Assembly (NCBI GenBank): GCA_902770595.1
Contig: CACXTQ010000004.1
Span: forward strand, 3,445 to 67,444
Source: an uncultured Bacteroidales bacterium
Lineage (GTDB): Bacteria; Bacteroidota; Bacteroidia; Bacteroidales; UBA3663
Length of the DNA: 64,000 nt
Reading direction: 5' to 3'
The position numbers and the translations under genes are program-made. This document shows, one piece after another, positions 25 through 52,640 of the stretch; the stretch's first letter is position 1; each line of letters opens with the position of its first letter. The notes under the pieces are model-generated. The model saw nothing but the letters and a program-made list of their open reading frames with translations. It was not told the origin of the DNA and did not search any database.

Positions 25-156
25 AAGGTTCTGAAAGGTTCTGAATTGTTAAGAAAGGTTCGAAAGGTTGTTAATCCCTAAATCCTCTTCGAACCTTTCG
101 AACCCCTCAGAACCTTTCAGAACCTTTCGAACCCCTCAGAACCTTTCAGAACCCTT
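25..156. repeat. Composite word-repeat hairpin: a GAAAGGTTC-type arm (25-69) faces a GAACCTTTC-type arm (91-156). The right arm holds a 29-bp unit (91-119) repeated at 120-148.
   Basis: Read directly. GAAAGGTTCTGA on the left is the reverse complement of TCAGAACCTTTC on the right, and gaacctttcgaacccctcagaacctttca occurs twice in tandem. Confidence 0.8.
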
Positions 157-1727: not shown

Positions 1728-1732
1728 TTTAG

Positions 1733-1820
1733 TAGGTCACACAGATTTCACAGATGAACACAGATTATTGTATGTTGTATATAGAATAAAATCTGTATAA
1801 ATCTGTGAAATCTGTGTGAC
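1733..1820. repeat. CACAGATTT-word hairpin (left arm GGTCACACAGATTTCACAGAT, right arm ATCTGTGAAATCTGTGTGAC)
   Basis: The arms are reverse complements. The 25-mer TAGGTCACACAGATTTCACAGATGA at 1733-1757 recurs identically at 2222-2246. Confidence 0.85.
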
Positions 1821-1852
1821 AAATATATTGATAATGAATAACACAGATATTT

Positions 1853-17576: not shown

Positions 17577-17754
17577 TTAAGGGATTCTAAGGGATTTTAA
17601 GGGAATCTAAGGGATTTTAAGGGACGTATGTTTCTTGGGTCCCAATCTCTACAGGCTAAGGTATCGTCCCTTAATATCCCTTAATATCCCTTAATATCCC
17701 TAATATCCCCTAATATCCCCTAATATCCCCAAAAAGAGATATCCCTTATTATCC
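17577..17754. repeat. Word-repeat hairpin: a (TAAGGGATT)n arm faces (CCCTTAATAT)3 (CCCTAATATC)3 arms, between convergent genes
   Basis: Read directly. The left arm has 4-5 tandem TAAGGGA words and the right arm has 6+ tandem TCCCTTA/TCCCCTA words, so the arms are partly complementary. Confidence 0.8.
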
Positions 17755-17791: not shown

Positions 17792-18262
17792 TTATTCTTC
17801 GACATCACAGCCGGTGAAGCCTATGGTTTCAGCGGCTTTTTCTTTCGAGGCACAGAAATAGACAAGGGTGGAGCGGGTGCAGACTTCACTAGAGGAATCA
17901 AGGATCTCCGTCTCGATGAAAGCGACATTACGCATCTGACGAACGATATGACCACGGATAGTAAGCACGGGCTCGTTGGTCGAGATAGGCTTGAGATACT
18001 GCACCTCCATCTTGCTGGTGACACCGGTGGTTTGCAGTTTGCGTGTGACAACCCAACCGCCCACTTCGTCCATCAGCATAGCTTGCACCCCGCCGTGCAG
18101 GGTGTCGAGCCAACCTTGAAAGTCACGATCGGGATGCCATTGGGTGACGATATCGTCGCCATCCTCCCAGAAGTCAAGATGGAGACCACGTGGATTACCT
18201 GGGCTACAACAGATGCAGTTGTAGCCTTTGATGCCAAGCCAGGGGTTGATGATCTTTTTCAA
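17792..18262 (-). CDS. PaaI-family (hotdog fold) thioesterase, TTG start
   Basis: 156 aa; LHGGVQAMLMDEVGG is the hotdog thioesterase core motif. The only start giving a full-length protein is a TTG at 18262-18260. Confidence 0.7.
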   Translation of the reverse strand: MKKIINPWLGIKGYNCICCSPGNPRGLHLDFWEDGDDIVTQWHPDRDFQGWLDTLHGGVQAMLMDEVGGWVVTRKLQTTGVTSKMEVQYLKPISTNEPVLTIRGHIVRQMRNVAFIETEILDSSSEVCTRSTLVYFCASKEKAAETIGFTGCDVEE

Positions 18263-18321
18263 TTAACAATTAACAATTAACAATGGTCAATTAACAATAA
18301 ATAATTAACAATTAACAATTG
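18260..18321 (-). repeat. (AATTGTT)n leader array immediately 5' of the thioesterase start (coding-strand reading)
   Basis: The reverse complement reads AATTGTTAATTGTTAATTATTTATTGTTAATTGACCATTGTTAATTGTTAATTGTTAATTG. The last TTG is the start codon. Confidence 0.85.
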
Positions 18322-18341: not shown

Positions 18342-20402
18342 TTATTTTTCGATACGGATTCTGGCATCGACGGCGACAACTTCCTTCTCGTCGGCGATGA
18401 GCGGGTTGATGTCCATTTCCTTAATCTCAGTAGCGAAACGCAGGAGGGTGGAGAGACGCACAATGATCTCCATATACTTGTGTTCATTGATTCCCTTCTG
18501 CCCTCGCGTTCCCTTGATGATCTTATACCCACGAAGGCTGTGGATCATCGATTCGGCTTCGGACACCGACAAGGGAGCCAAACCGCTGGAGACATCCTTG
18601 AGTACTTCGACAAAAATGCCTCCCAAACCACAAAGCACAACGTGACCGAAACGCGGTTCATACTTTGCACCAATGAAGAGCTCGGTACCACGCAGCATCT
18701 TCTGCACCATCACGCCCTTGGCACCTTCGATCTTCATCTTGTGGTCAAACTCCCAGGCAAGATGTTCGGCATCGCGGATATTGAGCGTCACGCCACCCAC
18801 ATCACTCTTGTGAATGGGACCAACAACCTTGGCAACAACAGGATATCCAATTCGGTCGGCGAAGGCCAGCAGTTCTTCCTTTTGCTCCGAAACCATTTCG
18901 GGCACCATCGGAATGCCGGCACAACTGAAAATCTGTCGCACCAGATCGGGCGAGATGTAGCCGCTCTCCTTCAGGCCGCTCATGATGTCGCGAATCTTCG
19001 GCACATCAACGCCGAAGAGCGTTATCTCGGCAGGCGCTGGCTTGGGGGTGTTCATCACGCGGACGAGACAGTTGGCCACGGTTACTTCGTCGGAGAAGTT
19101 GACGTGTCCCTTGGCTAAGAACTCGGCCACCTCGGGACCAGCCGTATTCATCGAAGGTAGGATGGGGAAGATGGGCTTGCGACACTCGAGAATCTTCTTG
19201 TGAAGCACGTCATAGGCCTCATAGAGTTGCACAAGTCCTGGCGAGCCGAAGATGACAAAGATGGCATCAATCTCATCGAAACGCTTCTCGCAATAGTCGA
19301 TAGCGATACCCAACTGTTCGGGGGTTCCCGTGGCAAGGATGTCGATGGGATTGCTCACGGCAGCGCCCTGGAAGAGTTTCGTCTTCAGTTCCTCGGTAGC
19401 AGGACCCGTGAGATGGGGCACCTGTAAGCCGCCCTTTGAAAGCGCATCGGTCAGCATCACACCAGGGCCGCCGGCATGGGTGACGATGGCGAAGTTCCTT
19501 CCGCCCAAGGCGGGAAGAGTGAAGATACAGCCAACGGTGGTCAGTTCCTCTCGTGAGAAACATCGGACGATGCCAGCTTTGCGGAAGAGCGCCTCGACAG
19601 CTGAATCGCTGCTGGCGATAGCGCCTGTGTGGGAACTGGCAGCACGCGAACCACTCTCGCTGCTGCCTGCCTTGATGGCAGCGATGCGACAACCCTTGCG
19701 AATCAACGAACCAGCATGATAGAGCAGTTTATCAGGATCGGAAATGTTCTCGATATAGAGCAGTTTGATGTGCGAGTCACGCTCAGGATCGAAGTTCTCG
19801 TCCATATACTGCAATGCATCCTCGATACCAATCTGCTTGCCGTTGCCAATGCTCCAGACGGAATTGAAAGGCAAGCCCTTGATGACTGCCGATTCGAGGA
19901 TGAACACCGCCGTGGCTCCACTGCCCGAGATAAAGTCCGCGCCCTTGGCATTGAGCTGGGGAATAGGCTTGGTAAACACACCGTGATACCATGCGTTCAT
20001 CATACCGATGCAGTTCGGTCCGATGAGCGCACAACCATACTTCTCGCATGTGTCGAGGATGTGTTGTTCACGCTTAGCTCCTTCAGCAGTCTCTTCGCCG
20101 AAACCTGCCGAAATGATGATGAAGGCGCGCACCTGCTTTTCGGCAGCAAGGTAATCGACATAGTCGGGACAATACTTGGCAGCCACCACTAGGATAGCCA
20201 ACTCAGTGGGCGGTATCTCCTTGGCATCGTGGAAAGCCTTGATGCCCTGAATCTCGTCCTCCTTGGGATTGACAATACGGAGCGTGCCCTGGTAACCTCC
20301 TTGAATAAGATTGCGGACGATGGCGCCTCCTGGCTTATGCACGTTGTTCGAGCCGCCTATCACTACTATGCTCTCGGGATGTAAAAGCTGTCGGTTGATC
20401 AT
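18342..20402 (-). CDS. ADP-forming acetate--CoA ligase family protein (CoA-binding + succinyl-CoA-ligase-like + ATP-grasp)
   Basis: MINRQLLHPESIVVIGGSNN...GPNCIGMMN, with an ATP-grasp-like C-terminus. I prefer the ATG at 20402 over the TTG at 20411 in the ORF track. Confidence 0.8.
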   Translation of the reverse strand: MINRQLLHPESIVVIGGSNNVHKPGGAIVRNLIQGGYQGTLRIVNPKEDEIQGIKAFHDAKEIPPTELAILVVAAKYCPDYVDYLAAEKQVRAFIIISAGFGEETAEGAKREQHILDTCEKYGCALIGPNCIGMMNAWYHGVFTKPIPQLNAKGADFISGSGATAVFILESAVIKGLPFNSVWSIGNGKQIGIEDALQYMDENFDPERDSHIKLLYIENISDPDKLLYHAGSLIRKGCRIAAIKAGSSESGSRAASSHTGAIASSDSAVEALFRKAGIVRCFSREELTTVGCIFTLPALGGRNFAIVTHAGGPGVMLTDALSKGGLQVPHLTGPATEELKTKLFQGAAVSNPIDILATGTPEQLGIAIDYCEKRFDEIDAIFVIFGSPGLVQLYEAYDVLHKKILECRKPIFPILPSMNTAGPEVAEFLAKGHVNFSDEVTVANCLVRVMNTPKPAPAEITLFGVDVPKIRDIMSGLKESGYISPDLVRQIFSCAGIPMVPEMVSEQKEELLAFADRIGYPVVAKVVGPIHKSDVGGVTLNIRDAEHLAWEFDHKMKIEGAKGVMVQKMLRGTELFIGAKYEPRFGHVVLCGLGGIFVEVLKDVSSGLAPLSVSEAESMIHSLRGYKIIKGTRGQKGINEHKYMEIIVRLSTLLRFATEIKEMDINPLIADEKEVVAVDARIRIEK

Positions 20403-20409
20403 GATAGTC

Positions 20410-20469
20410 AATTAACAATTAATAATTAACAATTAACAATTAATTATTTACAAATAATGATTAACAATT
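20410..20469 (-). repeat. (AATTGTT)n leader array 5' of the acetate--CoA ligase start
   Basis: The reverse complement of 20410-20441 is AATTGTTAATTGTTAATTATTAATTGTTAATT, identical to 38756-38787. It lies between the -7 box (20475-20482) and the ATG. Confidence 0.85.
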
Positions 20470-20474
20470 TTGTG

Positions 20475-20482
20475 CAAAGATA
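20475..20482 (-). promoter_or_regulatory. -7 promoter box (TATCTTTG on minus strand)
   Basis: TAnnTTTG match 72 nt upstream of the ATG at 20402. Confidence 0.5.
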
Positions 20483-20565
20483 AAAGAAATCGGGGAAGAA
20501 TCCAAAAAAAAGGGAGACTTTTTTGGTTTTTCATTCCAAAAATTGGAAGAATGCAGAATAATACG

Positions 20566-20573
20566 TATTTTTG
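20566..20573 (+). promoter_or_regulatory. -7 promoter box (TATTTTTG)
   Basis: TAnnTTTG match 35 nt upstream of the ATG at 20609. Confidence 0.5.
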
Positions 20574-20608
20574 CAACGTGCTTTTCGATGTTACAATAAT
20601 AAAAAAGA

Positions 20609-36097: not shown

Positions 36098-36146
36098 CTA
36101 TCTAAAACATCTAGAACATCTAGAGAATCTAGAATATCTAGAAAGA
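36098..36146. repeat. Tandem ATCTAGAA-type words (five to six copies) in the porK-porL spacer
   Basis: ctatctaaaacatctagaacatctagagaatctagaatatctagaaag. Each word contains the palindrome TCTAGA. Confidence 0.75.
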
Positions 36147-36175
36147 CTCGAAAAACAAAATAACAACAAAACAAT

Positions 36176-38755: not shown

Positions 38756-38790
38756 AATTGTTAATTGTTAATTATTAATTGTTAATTAAT
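38756..38790 (+). repeat. (AATTGTT)n leader array immediately 5' of porN
   Basis: AATTGTTAATTGTTAATTATTAATTGTTAATT (38756-38787) is identical to the reverse complement of 20410-20441. It ends 5 nt before the ATG at 38793. Confidence 0.85.
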
Positions 38791-38792
38791 CA

Positions 38793-40151
38793 ATGAAACA
38801 TATCCTCCGTCTGATCATGCTCACGCTCATGTTGGGCATCGTCATACCTGAAGCCACTGCACAGGTCAGCGTACGTCGATCCAGCAGTTCCCGCAGCTCG
38901 TCTTCCTCTTCGTCTAAGAAGAAGAGCGACGACAAGAAGAAAAGCGATGACAAGAAGAAGAGCAAGGAAGCGACTTCCAAGCCTGTTGAGGTCAAGGCGA
39001 CTCCAGTTTCTTCCACCCCAGCGTCATCTGGCGATGGTCAGGTAGCAAGGCCGACACGCCGTCCCGAAGGCACAATGCAGGATGGTGCATCACCTGCTGC
39101 CCGCGTGACGCCTACCCGCAGGGTGCAGAAGAAGGAAAATCAGCCCATTGTCGATGGCAATAGCCAGCGTCAGCAGTCGTTTGCCGAATACCAGCGCAAG
39201 GAAGACGGATTCATGCCCTGGCAGCATGTCGTCTATCGCGAACTCGATATGGAGAACCCCGTCAACGCTTCGCTCTACTATCCCGAAGAACCCATGGACG
39301 GACTGACCAACCTCTTCCGTGTCATCCTCGATGGCATCTGCACAGGTAGACTAAAAGGCTACGAATACCTCGATGGCCGCGAGATCTTTGACGAGAAATA
39401 TGTGGTCAATCCTCGCGATATCCTCGACAAGTTCCAGATTCTCTATCAGGAGAAACCCGCTGTCGGACAAAACGGCAAACCCACCTATGTAGTCGAAGAG
39501 ATGGACGTACCCTGCAACGAAGTGCTGAGTTATTTCATCAAGGAACGTTGGGAATTCAACCAGAAAACTTCGAAATATGGTCCCCGCATTCTTGCCATCT
39601 GCCCTGTGCTTCATCGTTCAGGCGACTTTGGAGGTGACCTGGTCAAGTACCCCATGTTCTGGCTCAATTACGAAGACCTTCGTCCCCTGCTGCGCGAACA
39701 CCTCATTATGAGCGATGGTATGAACAACACTCCTCGTTTTACGATGGAGGAGTTCTTCACTCTCGAGCAGTATAAGGGCGACATCTATAAGGTGCAGAAT
39801 ACCCGCGGCCTTTCGCTGATGCAGCAGTATCCCAATCCTGATACCCTCAAGATGATGCGTGCCAAGATAGAAGCCGAACTGCGTGGTTTCGGCGACAGCA
39901 TCTGGGTCTATGAAGAGACCGAAGCCGACCTCGCCGTACAGGACAGCATCCGCGCTGCCCGCCGCGCCGAACGTCGTGCCCGTCGCGGCGAACCCGCAAC
40001 TGCCTCAACAGGCGATGGCAAGAAGAACCGTCGCACCAAGGCCGAAGTTGATATGGCTGCCGTCGAGGAAGCTAAGGAAGCCAAGGAAGATGCCATCGAC
40101 AGCCGCATCGAATCGACCGGCAAGGCCCATTCCGCCCGCCGAAGAAGGTAA
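38793..40151 (+). CDS. porN: T9SS ring component PorN/GldN with low-complexity N- and C-terminal extensions
   Basis: The core (YRELDMENPVNASLYYP...LFRVILDGI...ERWEFNQKTS) matches GldN. The N-terminal S/K/D-rich and C-terminal R/A/E-rich tracts are extra. Confidence 0.85.
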   Translation: MKHILRLIMLTLMLGIVIPEATAQVSVRRSSSSRSSSSSSSKKKSDDKKKSDDKKKSKEATSKPVEVKATPVSSTPASSGDGQVARPTRRPEGTMQDGASPAARVTPTRRVQKKENQPIVDGNSQRQQSFAEYQRKEDGFMPWQHVVYRELDMENPVNASLYYPEEPMDGLTNLFRVILDGICTGRLKGYEYLDGREIFDEKYVVNPRDILDKFQILYQEKPAVGQNGKPTYVVEEMDVPCNEVLSYFIKERWEFNQKTSKYGPRILAICPVLHRSGDFGGDLVKYPMFWLNYEDLRPLLREHLIMSDGMNNTPRFTMEEFFTLEQYKGDIYKVQNTRGLSLMQQYPNPDTLKMMRAKIEAELRGFGDSIWVYEETEADLAVQDSIRAARRAERRARRGEPATASTGDGKKNRRTKAEVDMAAVEEAKEAKEDAIDSRIESTGKAHSARRRR

Positions 40152-40160
40152 TAGTCCTCG

Positions 40161-40190
40161 TCGCGGCCGTTTTTGGCCGCGCCCCTTTTT
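40161..40190 (+). terminator. Rho-independent terminator after porN
   Basis: CGCGGCC-GTTTTT-GGCCGCG stem-loop followed by CCCCTTTTTG. Confidence 0.7.
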
Positions 40191-40215
40191 GCTCCTAACA
40201 TTTCAAAAATAATCT

Positions 40216-43697: not shown

Positions 43698-46600
43698 ATG
43701 AAAAACATCTATCTCTATTTGCTTGCGCTTCTGTCGCTCGCAGGTCCCGGCATCGCCACGGCACAGACTCTGGAGAACGGCGATGTGAAGACGGGACGCT
43801 TCACCGAAACACAACACGAAGCATGGTACACCCTCACTCTCCAGACCGAAGGTGATGCCTCCATCGCCGTCAATTCGGTCAGCAACGTCCGTATCGATGG
43901 ACTCGACCTCTATGCAGAGTACAATGGCGAAAATCATTGGCGCACCGGCTCTGTGTGGATCGAAGGTGGACGCATTCTCACCTGCGCCGATATGGGCATT
44001 GGCACCTACAAGGTGAAGGTGACCGGCCGACCCACCAACAACGCCACAAGCGGTACCTTCCAAATCACCTGCTTGCTGAGCCAGCCTTCTTACAAAAGCG
44101 ACCCGGAACCCAACGGCACCTGGCAACAGGCAGCCTTCCTGACTCAAGGCGTAACAATGCCCGGTCGAATGGGCTATCAATTCTATAACGACCGCGACAA
44201 CACCGATTGGTTCCGTCTCGAGGTGCCCGAGGACGGCAAACTCACTTTCGAGACCAAGAGCGACCAATCCCTGCGTTTGGGCAGCCTCAATCTCTACACA
44301 CTCAATGCCGATGGGGCCGACGTTTCGTGGCGCACTTCGAAGGATATGGATGGCTATGGCCGCGACACCACCATCGTATTCGAAATCCCCAATGTATCGG
44401 CAGGCACCTACTACGTCCGGCAGGATCGCTACACGGGCGTCGGCAGCTACCAGTTGATCTATTACTTTACCTCGCACAGCCTCAACGCCGATCCCGAACC
44501 AAATGGCACTTGGAAAGAGGCCATCGAACTGAATGCCGGACCTTCGGTCAGCGGACAGTTAGGCTACGACTACCAGAACTCGACCGATGGTGTCGATTGG
44601 TACAAGATCGAAGTTCCCGACGAAGGAACTGTCATTCTCAACACCTCTTCCGAGACTACCTTGCGTCTGGGCAGCCTGAATCTCTATACCTACAATGCTG
44701 ACCAGAGCGACGTTTCGTGGCGCACTTCGAAGGATATGGACGGCTATGCCAAGGACACCACCGTCTTCTTCACCATCGTCGATTGTGCTGCTGGTACCTA
44801 TTTCCTGCGTCTCGACCGCTACACAGGCTATGGCACCTACACGCTCAAATACACCTTCAATGCCAACAGCCATCAGAAGGACCCCGAGCCCAACAACGAT
44901 TGGACAAAGGTTTCCGAAATCAAACTTGGAACCACCCAGCAGGGACGTTTGGGATACTTCTACTACAACGACCGCGACGGTGTGGATTGGTACAAAGTCG
45001 AAATTCCCGACGAGGGAACTCTGGCACTTACCACCACCTCCGAAACTACCCTACGTCTCGGCAGTCTCAACCTTTACACCTACAATGCTGAACGAACCGA
45101 CGTCTCGTGGCGCACCTCGAAAGATATGGATGGATATTCCAAGGATACCACCGTCGTCTTCACCATTTCCGATCTTGCTCCAGGTACTTACTTCCTCCGT
45201 CAAGACCGTTACACCGGACAAGGAGGCTACAAGCTGAAGGTTGAGTTCACGCCTAATCCCTATGGCCCCGATTCGTTCGACAACAACGCATGGGACAAGG
45301 CCACAGAAATTACTTCGGGCATCACTCAGCAAGGTCGTTTGGGATACTTCTACTACAATGACCGCGACGGTGTGGATTGGTACCGATTCGAGATATCAGC
45401 CGATGGCGAGGCTGTTTTTACCACCACTTCCGAGACCACGTTGCGTCTGGGCAGCCTCAATCTCTATACCTACAACGGCGAACGCACCGACGTATCGTGG
45501 CGCACCTCCAAGGATATGGACGGATACTCCAAGGACACCACCGTAATCTTCATCATCTCCGACCTCGCTCCAGGCACCTACTTCCTCCGCCAGGACCGTT
45601 ACACTGGTCAAGGTGGCTATGCCCTCACCTATCGCTTCAACCCGAACCCCTATTGGCGCGAAAGAATCGACAACAACAAGTTCGATGGCCGTCTGGAGCT
45701 GAAGAAGGGGAAGACCGTCTATACGACGCTGGGCTTCTTCTATTACAACGACCGCAATACCGAAGACTGGTATGATCTGGGCACCTTTAACCGTGACATC
45801 ATCGACATCACCATCTGTCCCGACACTACCCATTCGCTCAATATGAGCAATGTCGATTGGTATCGTTGGGATGGAACCTACAACGACAACGGCTCGCCAC
45901 GCCTCTCGTGGATCAAGGGCGACCGTATCGAACGCAGCCGCATCACCTCTTCCTATTATAACAATACCGACGAGGAAACCCACCTCATCCTGAAAGTGAG
46001 TCGCTACACCGGTCAGGGTGGTTACTCCATTGTGATGGGCGAAGACGAGGAGGAAGTGGCAGCACGCGGTCCCGTCTATGCCAACTATCTGGGTCTGCAT
46101 ATCATTGTCGGTGGACGCAATACAGTGCGCAAGGGCGTGGCCTGTTACAACCCCATCACCATCTGCAACACGAGCAATGTGCGCACAATGCCAGCTGCAC
46201 TGGTCATCTCCGCTTCGAGCGACATCAACATCCTCGGCTTCGAGATGCCAGGCGATCTGGGCACCACCTATCTGCCTGCCGACAGCGTCCTCGTCGAGGG
46301 CGAAGACTGCGAGGGAACAGCCGTCTTCATCGTGCCTGGTCTTGATCCATGGCAGTTCTACACCTTCAACCTCATCAGCGAAGGTGTGGGCGACATCAAC
46401 TTCATTCCCGTTCGTCCTGGCGAAGATGTTGCTGAGAGGATTCGTGCCTTCGAACCCTTCACCACCGCCATTGTCGTGGGCTTCGTAGTCGATTGCGCTT
46501 GGGACATTGTCCAGGACCAGCTCGGCATCGACCATTTCGTCTCACGTACCGCTGGAGAAGTGCTTGCCCTCAACGAGCAGGAGGAACGGCAGTACTGCAA

Positions 46601-47738: not shown

Positions 47739-47910
47739 ACCTATCATCATACCATAAAAACATGGGGGATGTGCCTTGCGAGGCATATCCTCCTTTTTAT
47801 CATCCTTATCTATCATCAATTTTTATCACCTCCATCTGCCATCTCAACCCTTTTCTTCCCTCTTTCCAAGGAAACGTTGTCAAAATATACTCCTTTTCGC
47901 AAATTTTGCG

Positions 47911-47918
47911 TATATTTG
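47911..47918 (+). promoter_or_regulatory. -7 promoter box (TATATTTG)
   Basis: TAnnTTTG match 52 nt upstream of the ATG at 47971. Confidence 0.5.
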
Positions 47919-47932
47919 CACCGAACCAAACA

Positions 47933-47964
47933 AATTGTTATTTGTTAATTGTTAATTATTATTT
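47933..47964 (+). repeat. (AATTGTT)n leader array 5' of the DjlA-like gene
   Basis: AATTGTTATTTGTTAATTGTTAATTATTATTTG lies between the -7 box and the ATG, in the same orientation relative to the gene as the other three copies. Confidence 0.8.
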
Positions 47965-47970
47965 GAATAT

Positions 47971-48792
47971 ATGGCATTCGCAAAATGGATAGGAGCCTTC
48001 CTCGGCCTGCTCTCAGGAGGCGCCTTTGGAGCAATCGCAGGCTACGCCCTCGGCTACATCGTCGACGACTTCATCAGCAACGGAAACCAACTCACCTCTG
48101 GCGAACAGGAACCCTTTTCGCAGCAGAGGCGCACCACCTACACCCGTCGCACCACCCAGTCTCAGCGTGGCACCCAGCAGGAAGGCGAGCGCAACAGTTA
48201 CCTCTTCTCCCTGCTTCTCCTCTCGTCTCACATCATCATAGCCGACCAGAAGATCATGCATTCCGAGATGGAATATGTGCGCCGCACCCTGCGCAACAAC
48301 TTCGGCACTGCGGCAGAAAGCCAGGGAAACGAGATCCTGCTTCGTCTCTTCGAACGTCACAAGCAACTTGGCACAGCATTGTGGACCGAGCAGATACGCC
48401 AATGCTGCTACCAGATGGTAGGTGCCATGAGCGTCGAAGAGCGCCTCCAGCTCCTTGCCTTCCTCTGCGAAATCGCCAAGGCCGATGGCTCGGTGGTACA
48501 GGTCGAGGTCGATCGAATCCGCTCGATAGCCAATTGGCTCAGCATCAATGTTGACGAAGTGGACAAGCTTCTCCATCTCGGCTCCAACAAGATTGAAGAT
48601 GCCTACAAGGTGCTTGGCGTCTCTCCCGATGCCACCGACGACGAAGTGAAGAAGGCCTATCGCAAGATGGCCCTCCAGTATCATCCCGACAAGGTTTCCA
48701 CCCTCGGTGATGACGTCAAGGCTGCCGCCGAAAAGAAGTTCAAGGAAATCAACGCCGCCAAGGAACTCATCTGGGCTGCTCGTGGCCTATAA
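47971..48792 (+). CDS. DjlA-like co-chaperone: N-terminal TM segment, TerB-like domain, C-terminal J domain
   Basis: [31 protein letters not shown] (TM segment); central TerB-like repeats; C-terminus [31 protein letters not shown] (J domain with HPD). Confidence 0.75.
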
Positions 48793-48818
48793 CCTGCCCC
48801 TTCCCTTTTGTTTCCGTC

Positions 48819-48836
48819 GCGGCCATGTTTGGCCGC
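48819..48836. other. Small GC hairpin GCGGCC-ATGTTT-GGCCGC between the djlA-like gene and cutC
   Basis: Read directly. It is related to the hairpins at 40161-40181 and 49589-49608. Confidence 0.6.
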
Positions 48837-48846
48837 AAATCACGCC

Positions 48847-49527: not shown

Positions 49528-49588
49528 CCCCCTCTAATCCCAAGACCCCGTGTCCCAAGCCTCCCTCGTCTCCCCATTTGTCCTTGTC

Positions 49589-49608
49589 AGCAGCCATGTT
49601 TGGCTGCT
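49589..49608. other. Small hairpin AGCAGCC-ATGTTT-GGCTGCT downstream of cutC
   Basis: Read directly. It has the same ATGTTT loop as 48819-48836. Confidence 0.55.
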
Positions 49609-49660
49609 CCCATCTCCCCCCTTTTCAGCAAGCAGCGGTTGAACCGCTGCCCCCATTAAC

Positions 49661-52252
49661 ATGAAGCCCCTCCTCCCTCTCCTCGCCCTCCTCTCCCTCG
49701 CCTCCTGCACAACCACGCCCGAGACCACCCGTGACGAAGCCCTCGCCTTCCTCTACGCCTCCATGCCCCTCCCCGACAGCGTGGACTATAGTCGTGACTT
49801 CTGGCTCCAGAATATCGACTGCGCCCTTCAGGCACGCCGCGAGATGCCATGGGGCAGCACCATCCCCGAACGCGAATGGCGCCACTTCGTCCTCCCCGTG
49901 CGTGTCAACAACGAGAACCTCGACACCTGCCGAATTGTGTTCTATCCGCAGCTCAAGGACCGCGTCAAGGGCCTCTCGATGGCCGAAGCCATCCTCGAGG
50001 TCAACCATTGGTGCCACGAACGCGTCACCTATCAGCCCAGCGACGAACGCACCTCATCTCCCCTCGCCACCATCCGTACAGCCTATGGTCGTTGCGGTGA
50101 GGAATCCACCTTCCTCGTAGCAGCCTTGCGCAGCGTCGGCATACCCGCCCGCCAGGTCTATACCCCACGCTGGGCCCACACCGACGACAATCACGCCTGG
50201 GTCGAAGCATGGGCTGACGGCGAGTGGCATTTCCTCGGTGCCTGCGAACCTGAACCCGTTCTCGACCTCGGTTGGTTCAATCAGCCCGCTTCGCGTGCCA
50301 TGCTCATGCACACCAAGGTCTTCGGCCAATACGATGGACCCGAAGAAGTGATGCAGCGCAACGCCTGCTTCACCGAAATCGACGTCACCAGTCGCTATGC
50401 TCCCGTGGCTCGCAATTATGTCCAAGTGCTAGATGCCGAGGGGCATCCCGTGCCCGATGCCACGGTGGAATTCAAGATCTACAACTATGCTGAGTTCTAC
50501 ACCGTCCTGCGTCGTCAGACCAATGCTGAGGGCATTACGTCTATGCAGGCAGGCTTGGGCGACCTCATCTGCTGGGCTCACAAAGGCGATGCCTACGGCT
50601 TCCGCAAGATTCACATCGGCGATACCGACACGCTACGCCTCACGCTCAATCATCATCCAGGCGAACGCTACAGCATCGACCTCGACATCGTGCCTCCTGA
50701 CGAACGAAACACGTTGCCCGAAGTCTCCCCCGAACAACGTGCGCTCAACACCCGGCGTTTAGTCTATGAGGATTCGCTCCGCAATGCCTACGTCGCCACC
50801 TTCCCCACGTCCAACGACCCGCTCATCCTTGCCTCACATGGCAATTATGAGGTAATCAATCAATTCCTGAACCAAAATACCATCGTCGGTGAGGCAATCA
50901 GCCCCAATCTTCGTCGTTCATTGCTCAAGGCGCTTTCTGCCAAGGACCTCCGCGATGTCACGCCCGACGTACTGCGCGATGCCTTCTTTGGCTTCGAGCT
51001 TGCCGAACTTGATGCGATGGATGACTTCAAGATGCAGTACGTCGTCAATCCACGCGTTGCCAACGAAGGACTCCGTCCCTACAAGGCCTTCTTTGCCCAG
51101 CACATCAGCGACGAGCAGGCCAACGCCTGGCGTGCCGACCCGCAGCAGCTTGCAGTATGGATTGGCCAGAACATCGCGCTCGACACCACGCGCAATCCCC
51201 AGAACCTGCGCATGACACCCGTCGGAGCCTGGCTCAACCGATGCTGCGATGCCACCTCGCGCGACATCCTCTTCGTCGCCATCGCCCGCAGTTGCCACAT
51301 CCCCGCCCGCATCGACCCCGTGACCCGCAAACTGCAGTTTGCTCAAATGGGAACCACGCCCCTTTGGACCGATGTTAACATCGAGGGCCCAGCTCCTGCC
51401 CCTTCTATCAACCCCGCTTCGTCCATCAATCCCGCTCCTTCCGTTTCAGTAGCGACCAAGCTTGGTCGCCCATCGCTTCAAGGCGCCCTCTCCCTCACCT
51501 ACACCCCCACGCGCTTCAACCCCGATCCGAAATACTACACCCACTTCACCCTCTCGCAAATCAAGGATGGCTCGCCCGTCCTTCTCAACTACGGCGAAGG
51601 CGACACCCATCAAAGCCTTTTCGGCAACAATGCCACGTCGTTCGATTGTGGCGACTACATGCTCGTCACGGGCACACGTTTGGCCACAGGTTCCGTGCTC
51701 ACCCATATCGAGGTCTTTCCCATAGTGAAGGACCAGAAGGTCAAGGTGCCGCTGATGCTACGACAGGCCGAAACGGGATTGCAGGTCATCGGTAACTTCA
51801 ACAGCGAGAACCTCTACAACGACCTCAAGCAGGGCACGAAATCCCTGCTCTCCACCACGGGTCGCGGCTATTACATTCTCGGCATCATCGCTCCCAACAA
51901 CGAACCCTCTAACCATACGCTGCGCGACATCGCCCAGTGCAAGCAGGCTTTCGATCAATGGGGCATTCCCTTCGTCCTCCTCTTCCGCAACCAGCAGGAT
52001 GCTGCCCGTTTCTCCGACACTCCCTCCTTCCCCGACAAAACCTTCTTCGGCACCGACATCGACGGCAAAATCCTCGGCGAACTATGCACCGAGATGCACA
52101 TCAATAACCCCACCCTCCCCATCTTCATCATCGCCGACACCTTCAATCGCGTCGTCTTCCTCTCCGAAGGCTACACCATCGGCCTCGGCGAACAGTTAAT
52201 CAAGGCAGAAAGCACTCTGACGGGCGACAGAGTACTTGCTCTTACAGTATAA
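49661..52252 (+). CDS. Transglutaminase-like domain lipoprotein (863 aa)
   Basis: Lipobox LSLASC. YGRCGEESTFLVAALRSVGIPARQVYTPRWAHTDDNHAWVEAW carries a transglutaminase-core Cys/His/Asp pattern. Confidence 0.75.
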   Translation: MKPLLPLLALLSLASCTTTPETTRDEALAFLYASMPLPDSVDYSRDFWLQNIDCALQARREMPWGSTIPEREWRHFVLPVRVNNENLDTCRIVFYPQLKDRVKGLSMAEAILEVNHWCHERVTYQPSDERTSSPLATIRTAYGRCGEESTFLVAALRSVGIPARQVYTPRWAHTDDNHAWVEAWADGEWHFLGACEPEPVLDLGWFNQPASRAMLMHTKVFGQYDGPEEVMQRNACFTEIDVTSRYAPVARNYVQVLDAEGHPVPDATVEFKIYNYAEFYTVLRRQTNAEGITSMQAGLGDLICWAHKGDAYGFRKIHIGDTDTLRLTLNHHPGERYSIDLDIVPPDERNTLPEVSPEQRALNTRRLVYEDSLRNAYVATFPTSNDPLILASHGNYEVINQFLNQNTIVGEAISPNLRRSLLKALSAKDLRDVTPDVLRDAFFGFELAELDAMDDFKMQYVVNPRVANEGLRPYKAFFAQHISDEQANAWRADPQQLAVWIGQNIALDTTRNPQNLRMTPVGAWLNRCCDATSRDILFVAIARSCHIPARIDPVTRKLQFAQMGTTPLWTDVNIEGPAPAPSINPASSINPAPSVSVATKLGRPSLQGALSLTYTPTRFNPDPKYYTHFTLSQIKDGSPVLLNYGEGDTHQSLFGNNATSFDCGDYMLVTGTRLATGSVLTHIEVFPIVKDQKVKVPLMLRQAETGLQVIGNFNSENLYNDLKQGTKSLLSTTGRGYYILGIIAPNNEPSNHTLRDIAQCKQAFDQWGIPFVLLFRNQQDAARFSDTPSFPDKTFFGTDIDGKILGELCTEMHINNPTLPIFIIADTFNRVVFLSEGYTIGLGEQLIKAESTLTGDRVLALTV

Positions 52253-52612
52253 AGCATCGTGACGGCCGTCAGAGTACTTCCGCAATCGGAAAAAACACTC
52301 TGACGGCCGACAGAGTACTCGCTCCTATCGAATAGAGCATTATGACGCGCGACAGAGTACTTCCGCGATTTGAGCAAGCATCACGACGTGCGACAGAGTA
52401 CTTGCTTCTACAAGAAGAAGCATTATGACGGCCGTCAAAGTATTTGCGCAAATGGATAGAGTACTCTGTCGGCCGACAGAGTACTTGCTATTACAGAATA
52501 AAGCATCATAACGGCCGTCAGAATACTTACTCCTACGAAATAAAGCATCGTGACGGCCGACAGAGTGTTTGCGCAAATGGATAAAGTACTCTGACGCGCG
52601 TCAGAGTATTTG
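52213..52612. repeat. Array of ten 41-42-bp units, each centred on a CTGACGGCCGTCAG-type palindrome (REP/BIME-like)
   Basis: The cores start at 52217, 52259, 52300, 52342, 52383, 52425, 52466, 52508, 52550 and 52591. A perfect 26-bp palindrome AGTACTCTGTCGGCCGACAGAGTACT lies at 52460-52485. The array sits between convergent genes. Confidence 0.85.
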
Positions 52613-52640
52613 CTCCCCTATTCTAGAAAAAAGAAATTTA

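What the first reader, a model, noticed from the sequence alone, without database searches (positions are those of the whole stretch)
20410..20441. Identical 32-nt (AATTGTT)n element placed just 5' of start codons at four loci, always in the sense orientation
Seen: AATTGTTAATTGTTAATTATTAATTGTTAATT is present on the coding strand at 20441-20410, 7 nt before the ATG of the acetate--CoA ligase gene. It is present identically at 38756-38787, 5 nt before the porN ATG. One-to-few-mismatch versions lie at 18321-18260 (running into the thioesterase TTG start) and at 47933-47964 (6 nt before the djlA-like ATG). Where a -7 box is visible (20475-20482 and 47911-47918), the element fills nearly the whole predicted 5' UTR. 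At porN and the thioesterase it fills the intercistronic spacer. The two copies around the ligase gene are direct repeats. Established: Bacteroidota largely lack Shine-Dalgarno pairing and favour A/U-rich unstructured leaders. Inference: this may be a portable translation-initiation or mRNA-stability leader, or a binding platform for S1 or another RNA-binding protein, rather than random low complexity. I know of no description of such an element.
Basis: partly seen in the sequence, partly recalled or inferred. Interest (0 to 1): 0.65.

Follow-up and report, generated by a model that had tools for sequence, protein, structure and literature searches.

The report
Seven-base repeat leaders before start codons
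The element is a real seven-base tandem repeat that is transcribed and, in this uncultured cattle-gut Bacteroidales lineage, usually sits on the coding strand right before start codons; similar seven-base repeats at start codons are already described, and it changes too fast between relatives to look like a conserved regulatory site.

Summary
The 32-mer is exact at 20410-20441(-) and 38756-38787(+), and has one mismatch at 18289-18320(-), inside an array spanning 18260-18320. A degenerate copy lies at 47933-47965(+). All four lie on the coding strand and end 0-7 nt before a start codon.

It is a heptanucleotide microsatellite, (AATTGTT)n, not a structured RNA or a mobile element. Metatranscriptome contigs show it is transcribed in leaders and intercistronic spacers. 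AATTGTT arrays turned up mainly in Bacteroidota and Cyanobacteriota, and the exact 32-mer in more than 120 metagenome contigs of 18-57% GC. Across that whole 32-mer sample there is no orientation bias.

In contigs compositionally like the window, the bias is real. Of 30 independent 32-mer copies with enough flanking sequence, 21 end just before an open reading frame on the same strand, against 6 of 31 on the other strand and a 21% background.

Arrays change in 7-nt steps. In PorN relatives they are degenerate, replaced by other repeat families, or absent. They are not less folded than other leaders.

MacGregor 2015 (TAACTGA repeats) and a Nostoc preprint already describe heptamer repeats abutting start codons and propose the same function.

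Best reading: a slippage-born, A/U-rich repeat that serves as a Shine-Dalgarno-independent leader. It is a new member of a known kind, of moderate interest.

The parts
20409..20469 (-). (AATTGTT)n array in the leader of the ADP-forming acetyl-CoA synthetase gene. The exact 32-mer core is 20410-20441. The 5' units are degenerate.
   Evidence: RNA contigs reach into it from the coding region, and RNA depth is zero upstream of 20475.
20475..20482 (-). Bacteroidetes-type -7 promoter box TATCTTTG, upstream of the ligase leader.
   Evidence: Sequence. All four RNA runs have zero depth at 20475-20585, while DNA runs cover that stretch.
18260..18320 (-). (AATTGTT)n array filling the ligase-thioesterase spacer. 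It has two sub-arrays separated by GACC. Its last TTG (18262-18260) is the thioesterase start codon.
   Evidence: RNA contigs run from both flanking genes into the array. The relative L196 has substitutions at the same length.
38756..38787 (+). Exact 32-mer in the porM-porN spacer, ending 5 nt before the porN ATG.
   Evidence: One RNA contig spans porM's end, the array and porN's start with one unit (7 nt) missing. The spacer was compared in nine relatives.
47933..47965 (+). Degenerate (AATTGTT)n array in the leader of the djlA-like gene.
   Evidence: An RNA contig covers 47959-48224, and RNA depth is zero at 47779-47902. The array differs from L245 at about 6 of 40 positions, while about 108 nt upstream are identical.
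47911..47918 (+). -7 promoter box TATATTTG of the djlA-like gene.
   Evidence: Sequence. The RNA depth pattern fits a transcription start just downstream.
18342..20402 (-). ADP-forming acetyl-CoA synthetase gene (CoA_binding_2, Succ_CoA_lig, ATP-grasp_5), downstream of an array.
17792..18262 (-). 4HBT thioesterase gene whose TTG start is supplied by the array.
38793..40151 (+). porN/gldN gene.
47971..48792 (+). djlA-like gene (TerB + DnaJ domains).

Best explanation
The element is a heptanucleotide microsatellite, (AATTGTT)n. It is one of several short-unit tandem-repeat families that fill non-coding spacers in this uncultured bovine-gut Bacteroidales lineage.

Shown:
- It grows, shrinks and mutates like a microsatellite: 7-nt steps, fast substitution, and replacement by other repeats in relatives.
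- It has TAA in all three frames on both strands (direct from the sequence), so an array of three or more units cannot lie inside a gene.
- It is transcribed.
- In this lineage the 32-nt version lies mostly on the coding strand and ends 0-12 nt before genuine start codons. It therefore physically forms the translation initiation region, either the whole short 5' UTR or an intercistronic spacer. Sometimes it donates the UUG start codon.

Inferred: Bacteroidia ribosomes do not use Shine-Dalgarno pairing and initiate on A/U-rich leaders, so such arrays are tolerated right up to the start codon and serve as generic leaders. The lineage-specific strand bias points to some RNA-level selection. The effect is probably modest and not tied to an exact conserved sequence.
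For: - Repeat nature: TRF arrays, with zero chance matches in shuffles.
- Slippage and turnover: arrays differ by 7 or 14 nt among related contigs. An RNA contig lacks one unit. The porM-porN spacer carries the exact 32-mer at 96% PorN identity (L245) and in L225. It carries a longer variant at 92%, inverted 10-mer arrays at 88%, a degenerate array at 84%, no array at 82%, a variant at 77%, and is only 10 nt long at 66%. The djlA leader carries (CCCATAA)n in L242. The array mutates faster than its flank.
- Transcription: RNA contigs enter the arrays from the coding regions. RNA depth is zero upstream of the -7 boxes, where DNA runs give cover.
- Position and strand: among loci with tetranucleotide correlation above 0.8 to the window, 16 copies are sense leaders within 12 nt of a start and 2 are antisense. 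With a symmetric open-reading-frame test the counts are 21/30 sense and 6/31 antisense, against 21% at random positions.
- Genuine starts: Pfam profiles of MnmG, LuxS, RsmD and DUF3109 begin at residues 1-6 of the downstream proteins.
- Background: Bacteroidia initiate without Shine-Dalgarno pairing (PMC6847099, PMC7797042).
Against: - No measurement of translation or mRNA stability exists for any copy.
- Array leaders are not predicted to fold less than other leaders. MFE over -40..+20 is -5.1 to -8.4 kcal/mol against a median of -5.5 for the 40 other genes (p=0.84). Z-scores are -0.45, -0.61, -2.36 and +0.91.
- In F. johnsoniae the positive determinants are adenines at -3, -6, -12 and -13 (PMC6847099). 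The favoured strand here is U-rich (57% U, 29% A), so the bias runs opposite to that rule.
- Ten independent AATTGTT arrays in the same contigs that lack the exact 32-mer lie mostly next to stop codons or between convergent genes.
- The 'window-like' group was defined after seeing the data, first by GC and then by tetranucleotide correlation. All its loci were found through the exact 32-mer.
Confidence: 0.5

Rival explanations
1. The 32-nt leader is a specific post-transcriptional control site. It would be shared by many unlinked genes and bound by a lineage-specific RNA-binding protein (S1-, Csp- or CsrA-like). Alternatively it would pair with complementary (AAUUAAC)n tracts carried in the 3' UTRs of other mRNAs, so that the genes form a regulon.
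For: - At least 21 unlinked genes in window-like contigs carry the identical 32-mer on the coding strand at the start codon.
- 19 of 31 window-like copies are exactly 32 nt long, against 21 of 62 elsewhere (p=0.015).
- The array stretch has word depth hundreds of times that of its flanks in bovine-gut DNA and RNA runs.
- In the cross-phylum genome sample the exact 32-mer was seen in only 2 of the 137 arrays, read by eye from the listing.
- Copies in the opposite orientation directly after stop codons exist in the same group, so complementary RNAs would be present.
- The same proposal was made for TAACTGA repeats (PMC4679880).
Against: - The sequence is not conserved at orthologous sites beyond about 96% PorN identity, and other repeat units occupy the same position.
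- The array is a mutation hot spot compared with its flank.
- Downstream genes have no common function: MnmG, RsmD, RibH, LuxS, alpha-amylase, GH130, a Na/Pi transporter, PorN, DjlA and acetyl-CoA synthetase.
- The sample was selected for the exact 32-mer, which inflates its apparent uniformity.
Confidence: 0.2
2. The arrays are neutral or selfish filler with no role in RNA. Slippage and recombination create them wherever non-coding DNA tolerates them. The strand and position bias would come from how they spread, or from which sites are permissive. Bacteroidetes 5' UTRs are short, so anything inside one lies next to the start codon.
For: - Across all 93 deduplicated 32-mer loci there is no orientation bias, and the mix of tandem, divergent and convergent intergenic regions looks unremarkable.
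- Copies occur between convergent genes and directly after stop codons.
- Turnover is fast, and several unrelated repeat families of 7-, 9- and 10-nt units occupy the same operon spacers.
- Two locus clusters share only one flank, which suggests that arrays mark rearrangement breakpoints.
- Folding is average.
Against: - Permissiveness alone does not explain why the coding-strand orientation is at 70% while the opposite orientation sits at background in the window-like group.
- Copies next to stop codons show no strand bias (6 versus 6), so a general replication-strand or composition effect is unlikely.
- No conserved flanks, terminal inverted repeats or target duplications were found that would indicate a targeting mobile element.
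Confidence: 0.22
3. The arrays act on DNA. They would be A/T-rich direct repeats just downstream of the promoter that bind a nucleoid protein or a repressor, in the manner of the TTTTGAT heptads of the ctxAB promoter, or that change local DNA shape.
For: - -7 boxes lie 7-32 nt upstream of arrays on either strand. There are 8 sense and 7 antisense cases, against 2 and 4 boxes pointing away.
- Three heptads span about two helical turns (my own reasoning).
- Deleting the heptamer repeats upstream of Nostoc recO changed how the reporter responded to LexA and NtcA in E. coli (bioRxiv 10.1101/2022.06.06.494920).
Against: - Two of the four window copies sit in intercistronic spacers inside operons with no visible promoter (porM-porN, ligase-thioesterase), and at least porM-porN is covered by a single RNA contig.
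- A strong strand bias relative to the gene is not expected for a symmetric DNA-binding role.
- No candidate binding protein is known.
Confidence: 0.05

Closest known systems
TAACTGA heptamer direct repeats of marine Beggiatoaceae, Cyanobacteria and some Bacteroidetes (MacGregor 2015, PMC4679880)
   Same: - Both are tandem 7-nt direct repeats of a few copies.
- Both are mostly intergenic, in forward orientation, and within a few nt of start codons in some lineages, but scattered or reversed in others.
- Both are found in Bacteroidetes and Cyanobacteria.
- In neither case do the downstream genes share a function.
- S1, Csp or CsrA binding and translational control were proposed there too.
- The unit is similar: TAATTGT (a rotation of AATTGTT) matches TAACTGA at 5 of 7 positions.
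   Different: - The unit sequence differs.
- The host here is an uncultured gut Bacteroidales.
- One interrupted 32-nt variant recurs at many genes.
- This work adds RNA evidence, a comparison across relatives that shows turnover, and a statistical test of the strand bias.
Cyanobacterial heptamer repeats near start codons (STRR-type; Nostoc PCC 7120 recF/recO study, bioRxiv 10.1101/2022.06.06.494920)
   Same: Contiguous heptamers lie within about 30 nt of the start codons of a dozen or more genes and sometimes overlap the start codon. Their function is unresolved.
   Different: - The units differ (TTTTGAA, GAC(C/T)AAT).
- That study has reporter data, which point to effects on regulator binding at promoters.
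- It reports no strand-bias analysis.
Long simple sequence repeats of prokaryotes (Mrazek et al. 2007, as summarised in PMC4679880)
   Same: Heptanucleotide units were the commonest long repeat class in most genomes. A slippage origin was proposed, and units whose length is not a multiple of three are less often found inside coding regions.
   Different: That work is a genome-wide survey and does not link the repeats to translation starts.
Shine-Dalgarno-independent initiation in Bacteroidia (Baez 2019, PMC6847099; Jha 2020, PMC7797042)
   Same: Start sites have no Shine-Dalgarno sequence. Initiation depends on upstream sequence and low structure, and AUG is avoided near starts. The array contains no AUG on either strand.
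   Different: The known positive determinants are adenines at -3, -6, -12 and -13. The favoured strand of this array is U-rich, and its predicted folding is average.
Phase-variable repeats in 5' UTRs (Moraxella uspA2 AGAT repeats, cited in PMC4679880; Haemophilus, PMC12721329)
   Same: A tandem repeat lies between the promoter and the start codon, and its copy number varies between strains.
   Different: Those repeats sit at single surface-protein genes of pathogens and have measured effects on expression. Here there are many housekeeping genes and no measured effect.

Membership tests
Heptanucleotide simple sequence repeat (microsatellite) | Head-to-tail copies of a 7-nt unit, longer than chance allows | tested here: met
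   TRF finds 4.6-8.7 copies at four sites. Zero matches are expected in shuffles.
Heptanucleotide simple sequence repeat (microsatellite) | Length polymorphism in whole-unit steps between related genomes | tested here: met
   Arrays differ by 7 or 14 nt in clusters 55, 69, 86 and 100. An RNA contig has a 7-nt gap. L246 is longer by about two units.
Heptanucleotide simple sequence repeat (microsatellite) | Confined to non-coding DNA | tested here: met
   None of the 121 32-mer copies lies inside a called gene. TAA occurs in all three frames on both strands (direct from the sequence).
TAACTGA repeat family (MacGregor 2015) | The unit is TAACTGA | tested here: not met
   The unit here is AATTGTT. 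Its closest rotation, TAATTGT, matches at 5 of 7 positions (direct comparison). Mixed TAACTGT/TAATTGT arrays exist in L107.
TAACTGA repeat family (MacGregor 2015) | Forward orientation within a few nt of start codons | tested here: met
   Met in the window (4 of 4) and in window-like loci (21/30). Not met in other lineages (11/56).
Miniature mobile element (MITE-like) | Conserved ends, terminal inverted repeats or target-site duplications flanking the copies | tested here: not met
   Flank consensus over 31 and 62 loci shows nothing conserved beyond the repeat.
Structured cis-regulatory RNA (riboswitch or leader in Rfam) | Match to a curated family, or a stable conserved fold | tested here: not met
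   No Rfam hit anywhere in the window. Fold z-scores are -0.45, -0.61, -2.36 and +0.91.
A/U-rich, S1-type translational enhancer | A/U-rich and located directly 5' of the start codon | tested here: met
   GC over -40..-1 is 0.12-0.17, the lowest of the 44 genes scored. The arrays end 0-7 nt from the start codon.
A/U-rich, S1-type translational enhancer | Single-stranded, less folded than ordinary leaders | tested here: inconclusive
   MFE is -5.1 to -8.4 kcal/mol against a median of -5.5 for the 40 other genes in the window (Mann-Whitney p=0.84).
A/U-rich, S1-type translational enhancer | Raises translation, or binds S1 | not testable with these tools
   This needs reporter assays, toeprinting or ribosome profiling.
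Phase-variable 5' UTR repeat | A change in copy number switches or tunes expression | not testable with these tools
   Polymorphism is seen, but its effect was not measured.

The most novel reading that the evidence does not exclude
In one lineage of rumen Bacteroidales, a fixed, interrupted 32-nt repeat has spread to the start sites of perhaps a hundred unlinked genes. That number is an extrapolation from four arrays, two of them exact copies, in 64 kb. The repeat would work as a common Shine-Dalgarno-independent control point, read either by a dedicated RNA-binding protein or by complementary repeat tracts in other mRNAs. Changes in unit number would tune each gene.
Probability: 0.2. Interest if true: 0.7.

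Novelty: new member of a known kind. Interest (0 to 1): 0.4.

Why it matters
Bacteroidia translate without Shine-Dalgarno pairing, and what defines a good start site in them is still open. A repeat that makes up the whole leader of many genes, with a clear strand preference in one lineage, is a natural test case. Sense, antisense and copy-number variants could be compared directly in reporters.

The work also shows that operon spacers in these gut bacteria are built from fast-changing short repeats. That matters for gene calling, for assembly (contigs break at these arrays) and for strain typing. If the arrays turn out to be neutral, they still show how much sequence freedom a start site has when no Shine-Dalgarno sequence is needed.

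Tried and rejected
- **Genome scan pattern too generic.** It did reveal the spread across phyla.
- **Literal repeat strings in the paper library.** Only two unrelated papers came up.
- **Rfam over the whole window.** No hits.
- **Mobile-element idea.** There are no conserved flanks.
- **'Unstructured leader' idea.** It is not supported.
- **DNA contigs for copy-number polymorphism at the window's four sites.** Contigs break at the arrays.
- **Raw-read runs X21-X23.** They hardly contain this organism. Reads carrying the array come from other contexts. About 40% of them have G at 38774 where the 32-mer has A.
- **GC skew, to place a replication origin and test a leading-strand explanation.** Uninformative.
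- **-7 box scan around arrays.** Boxes point into arrays from either side about equally (8 versus 7), so it does not separate the orientations.
- **In-frame last TTG of the array.** This holds in 2 of 4 window copies, which is close to chance.
- **RNase E-type cleavage motif.** Considered by eye and not matched. Dropped.

Full report
**Observation**

The 32-mer AATTGTTAATTGTTAATTATTAATTGTTAATT is exact at 20410-20441(-) and 38756-38787(+). It has one mismatch at 18289-18320(-). None is expected in shuffled sequence. Tandem Repeats Finder reports period-7 arrays at 18260-18320, 20409-20469, 38756-38787 and 47933-47965. The last array is degenerate, with more than three mismatches to the 32-mer.

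Each array is on the coding strand and ends 0-7 nt before a start codon:
- the ligase ATG at 20402;
- the porN ATG at 38793;
- the djlA-like ATG at 47971;
- the thioesterase TTG at 18262, which is the last TTG of the array itself.

Pfam confirms the genes: ADP-forming acetyl-CoA synthetase, 4HBT thioesterase, GldN/PorN and TerB+DnaJ. The -7 boxes TATCTTTG (20482-20475) and TATATTTG (47911-47918) are present.

**Source and transcription**

The window's sequence is held by bovine gut metagenomes. One run holds 95% of its sampled words and about twenty others hold roughly half. Relatives are labelled only 'Bacteroidales bacterium'.

I laid metatranscriptome contigs from four runs on the window.
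- They cover the ligase and thioesterase genes and run into both arrays. RNA depth is zero at 20475-20585, upstream of the -7 box, although DNA runs cover that stretch.
- At djlA, RNA depth is zero at 47779-47902, and one contig runs from inside the array into the gene.
- At porN, a single RNA contig spans the end of porM, the array and the start of porN, with one 7-nt unit missing.

So the arrays are parts of mRNA leaders or intercistronic spacers. Two caveats apply. Contigs carry no strand information, and DNA carry-over cannot be excluded.

**How widespread**

A scan of one genome per species with the 16-mer TTGTTAATTGTTAATT stopped at its 120-locus limit. By my reading of the record titles, about 55 loci are Bacteroidota (including Ignavibacteria and relatives) and 23 are Cyanobacteriota. 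They include isolates of Capnocytophaga, Hymenobacter, Runella, Parapedobacter, Spirulina and Lyngbya.

The arrays there have 2-18 units. They are often mixed with other heptamers and sometimes occur as inverted pairs.

The exact 32-mer also hit the 120-locus limit in metagenome contigs, in sequences of 18-57% GC. In bovine-gut runs the array stretch has word depth hundreds of times that of its flanks, with dozens of different flanking sequences.

**Orientation and position**

The 121 copies reduce to 93 independent loci. Taken together they show no strand bias. The mix of tandem, divergent and convergent intergenic regions looks unremarkable, and many copies abut stop codons.

The picture changes when the loci are split by tetranucleotide similarity to the window.

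| Group | Test | Sense | Antisense |
|---|---|---|---|
| Window-like, r>0.8 (n=31) | crude gene calls, start within 12 nt | 16 | 2 |
| Others, r≤0.8 (n=62) | same | 4 | 7 |
| Window-like | symmetric test, ORF of at least 80 aa starting within -4..+16 nt of the array end | 21/30 | 6/31 |
| Others | same | 11/56 | 10/58 |
| Random positions in window-like loci | same | 21% | — |

For the 21 versus 6 comparison the binomial p is 0.006.

The starts next to the arrays are genuine. Pfam profiles of MnmG, LuxS, RsmD and DUF3109 begin at residues 1-6 of the predicted proteins, and RsmD uses a TTG formed with the end of the array.

The downstream genes share no function. Window-like copies are mostly exactly 32 nt long (19/31 against 21/62, p=0.015). 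Copies next to stop codons show no strand bias (6 versus 6), which argues against a simple replication-strand effect.

Three cautions apply:
- the window-like group was defined after looking at the data;
- every locus was found through the exact 32-mer;
- ten other independent AATTGTT arrays in the same contigs lie mostly next to stop codons or between convergent genes.

**Turnover**

I fetched PorN homologue loci without reference to the repeat. L225 came from the 32-mer scan. The porM-porN spacer varies as follows.

| PorN identity to window | Locus | porM-porN spacer |
|---|---|---|
| not computed (its PorN start differs at one of the first 24 residues) | L225 | exact 32-mer |
| 96% | L245 | exact 32-mer |
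| 92% | L246 | longer array with a different G/A pattern |
| 88% | L241, L247 | 171 nt of inverted 10-mer arrays, no heptamers |
| 84% | L242 | degenerate array |
| 82% | L248 | 34 nt, no repeat |
| 77% | L243 | variant array |
| 66% | L244 | 10 nt |

Other spacers behave the same way.
- The porK-porL spacer carries (ATCTAGAAC)n in several of these loci, with different copy numbers.
- The porL-porM spacer carries (GAACCTTTC)n in some.
- The djlA leader of L242 carries (CCCATAA)n instead of AATTGTT.
- Between the window and L245, about 108 nt upstream of the djlA array are identical, while the array differs at about 6 of 40 positions.
- Related metagenome contigs differ by 7 or 14 nt in array length, and two clusters share only one flank.

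A TRF census of about 447 kb of window-like sequence found 141 arrays with 6-11 nt units. This is microsatellite behaviour with weak constraint on the exact sequence.

**Structure and other classes**
- Rfam has no match anywhere in the window.
- There are no conserved flanks, so this is not a MITE.
- Predicted folding of the four initiation regions is average for the window. Against shuffles the z-scores are -0.45, -0.61, -2.36 and +0.91.
- The arrays have the lowest G+C of all the leaders scored and contain no AUG on either strand.

**Literature**

MacGregor 2015 (PMC4679880) described TAACTGA heptamer direct repeats. In Beggiatoaceae they are mostly forward-oriented and within a few nt of start codons. 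They also occur in Cyanobacteria and five Bacteroidetes. In Microcystis their arrangement differs. Binding by S1, Csp or CsrA was proposed.

A Nostoc preprint (10.1101/2022.06.06.494920) reports heptamers within 30 nt of the start codons of at least 13 genes. The kind of element and the idea are therefore not new.

Baez 2019 (PMC6847099) reports that in F. johnsoniae adenines at -3, -6, -12 and -13 and low structure favour initiation. The favoured strand here is U-rich, so the bias does not follow that rule.

**Interpretation**

The best-supported reading is a slippage-generated heptanucleotide repeat that is transcribed and forms the start-site region of many genes in this lineage.

It is tolerated, and probably used, as a generic A/U-rich leader, because these ribosomes need no Shine-Dalgarno sequence at a fixed distance. 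The strand bias suggests selection at the RNA level, but why that strand is favoured is unexplained.

A specific regulon, pure neutrality and a DNA-level role remain possible. Only reporter, binding and ribosome-profiling experiments can separate them.

Noticed in passing
window 17577-17624 and 17667-17729; also L241 and L247 porM-porN spacers: Inverted arrays of 10-nt units, (TAAGGGATTC)n and (TCCCTTAATA)n, could form a long hairpin between the convergent queC and thioesterase genes. The same pair fills the 171-nt porM-porN spacer of relatives at 88% PorN identity.
   Followed up: partly
window 25-69 and 91-153; L241, L242 and L247 porL-porM spacers: Inverted arrays (AAGGTTCTGA)n and (GAACCTTTCA)n lie at the window's start. 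Related (GAACCTTTC)n arrays fill the porL-porM spacer in relatives but not in the window.
   Followed up: partly
window 1728-1852 and 2225-2440: Both intergenic regions carry cacagattt-type units facing (AAATCTGTG[T])n arrays. They look like repeat-built hairpins after genes.
   Followed up: no
window 36100-36174 (porK-porL spacer): A (ATCTAGAAC)4.9 array is followed by an A-rich (AAAAACAA)3 run just before porL. The same 9-nt unit occurs with 7 copies in L242 and about 4 in L243. Other units occupy the spacer in L241 and L244.
   Followed up: partly
window 52209-52615: About ten tandem units of roughly 42 nt each hold the palindrome ACTCTGACGGCCGTCAGAGT. The series starts inside the 3' end of ORF 49661-52252 and fills the next intergenic region. 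It resembles a REP/BIME-type cluster.
   Followed up: no
window 44585-45619: 2.7 copies of a 390-nt repeat (TRF) lie inside the large DUF7619 protein gene, which carries three PPC-domain stretches. The protein may be secreted.
   Followed up: no
window 38916-38963: An 18-nt coding repeat near the 5' end of porN gives a Ser/Lys/Asp-rich stretch after the signal peptide. PorN lengths among close relatives vary between 440 and 452 residues.
   Followed up: no
window 40152-40215, 48793-48846, 49528-49660: A GC-rich hairpin of the form GCGGCC-N-TTTGGCCGC recurs after porN, djlA and the next gene, and is also seen in L241, L242 and L245. It looks like a shared terminator motif.
   Followed up: no
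L136/L194 versus L200/L212; L125 versus L236: Contigs share the flank on one side of the 32-mer but not on the other. Arrays may mark rearrangement or insertion breakpoints.
   Followed up: no
L191, L209, L179 and the unselected arrays in L188, L209, L224 and L240: [quoted passage not shown] In the second case the array often supplies the TAA stop. This polarity of the array is unexplained.
   Followed up: partly
whole window: There is no Rfam match at gathering threshold anywhere in the 64 kb, so no rRNA, tRNA or known RNA family was detected.
   Followed up: yes
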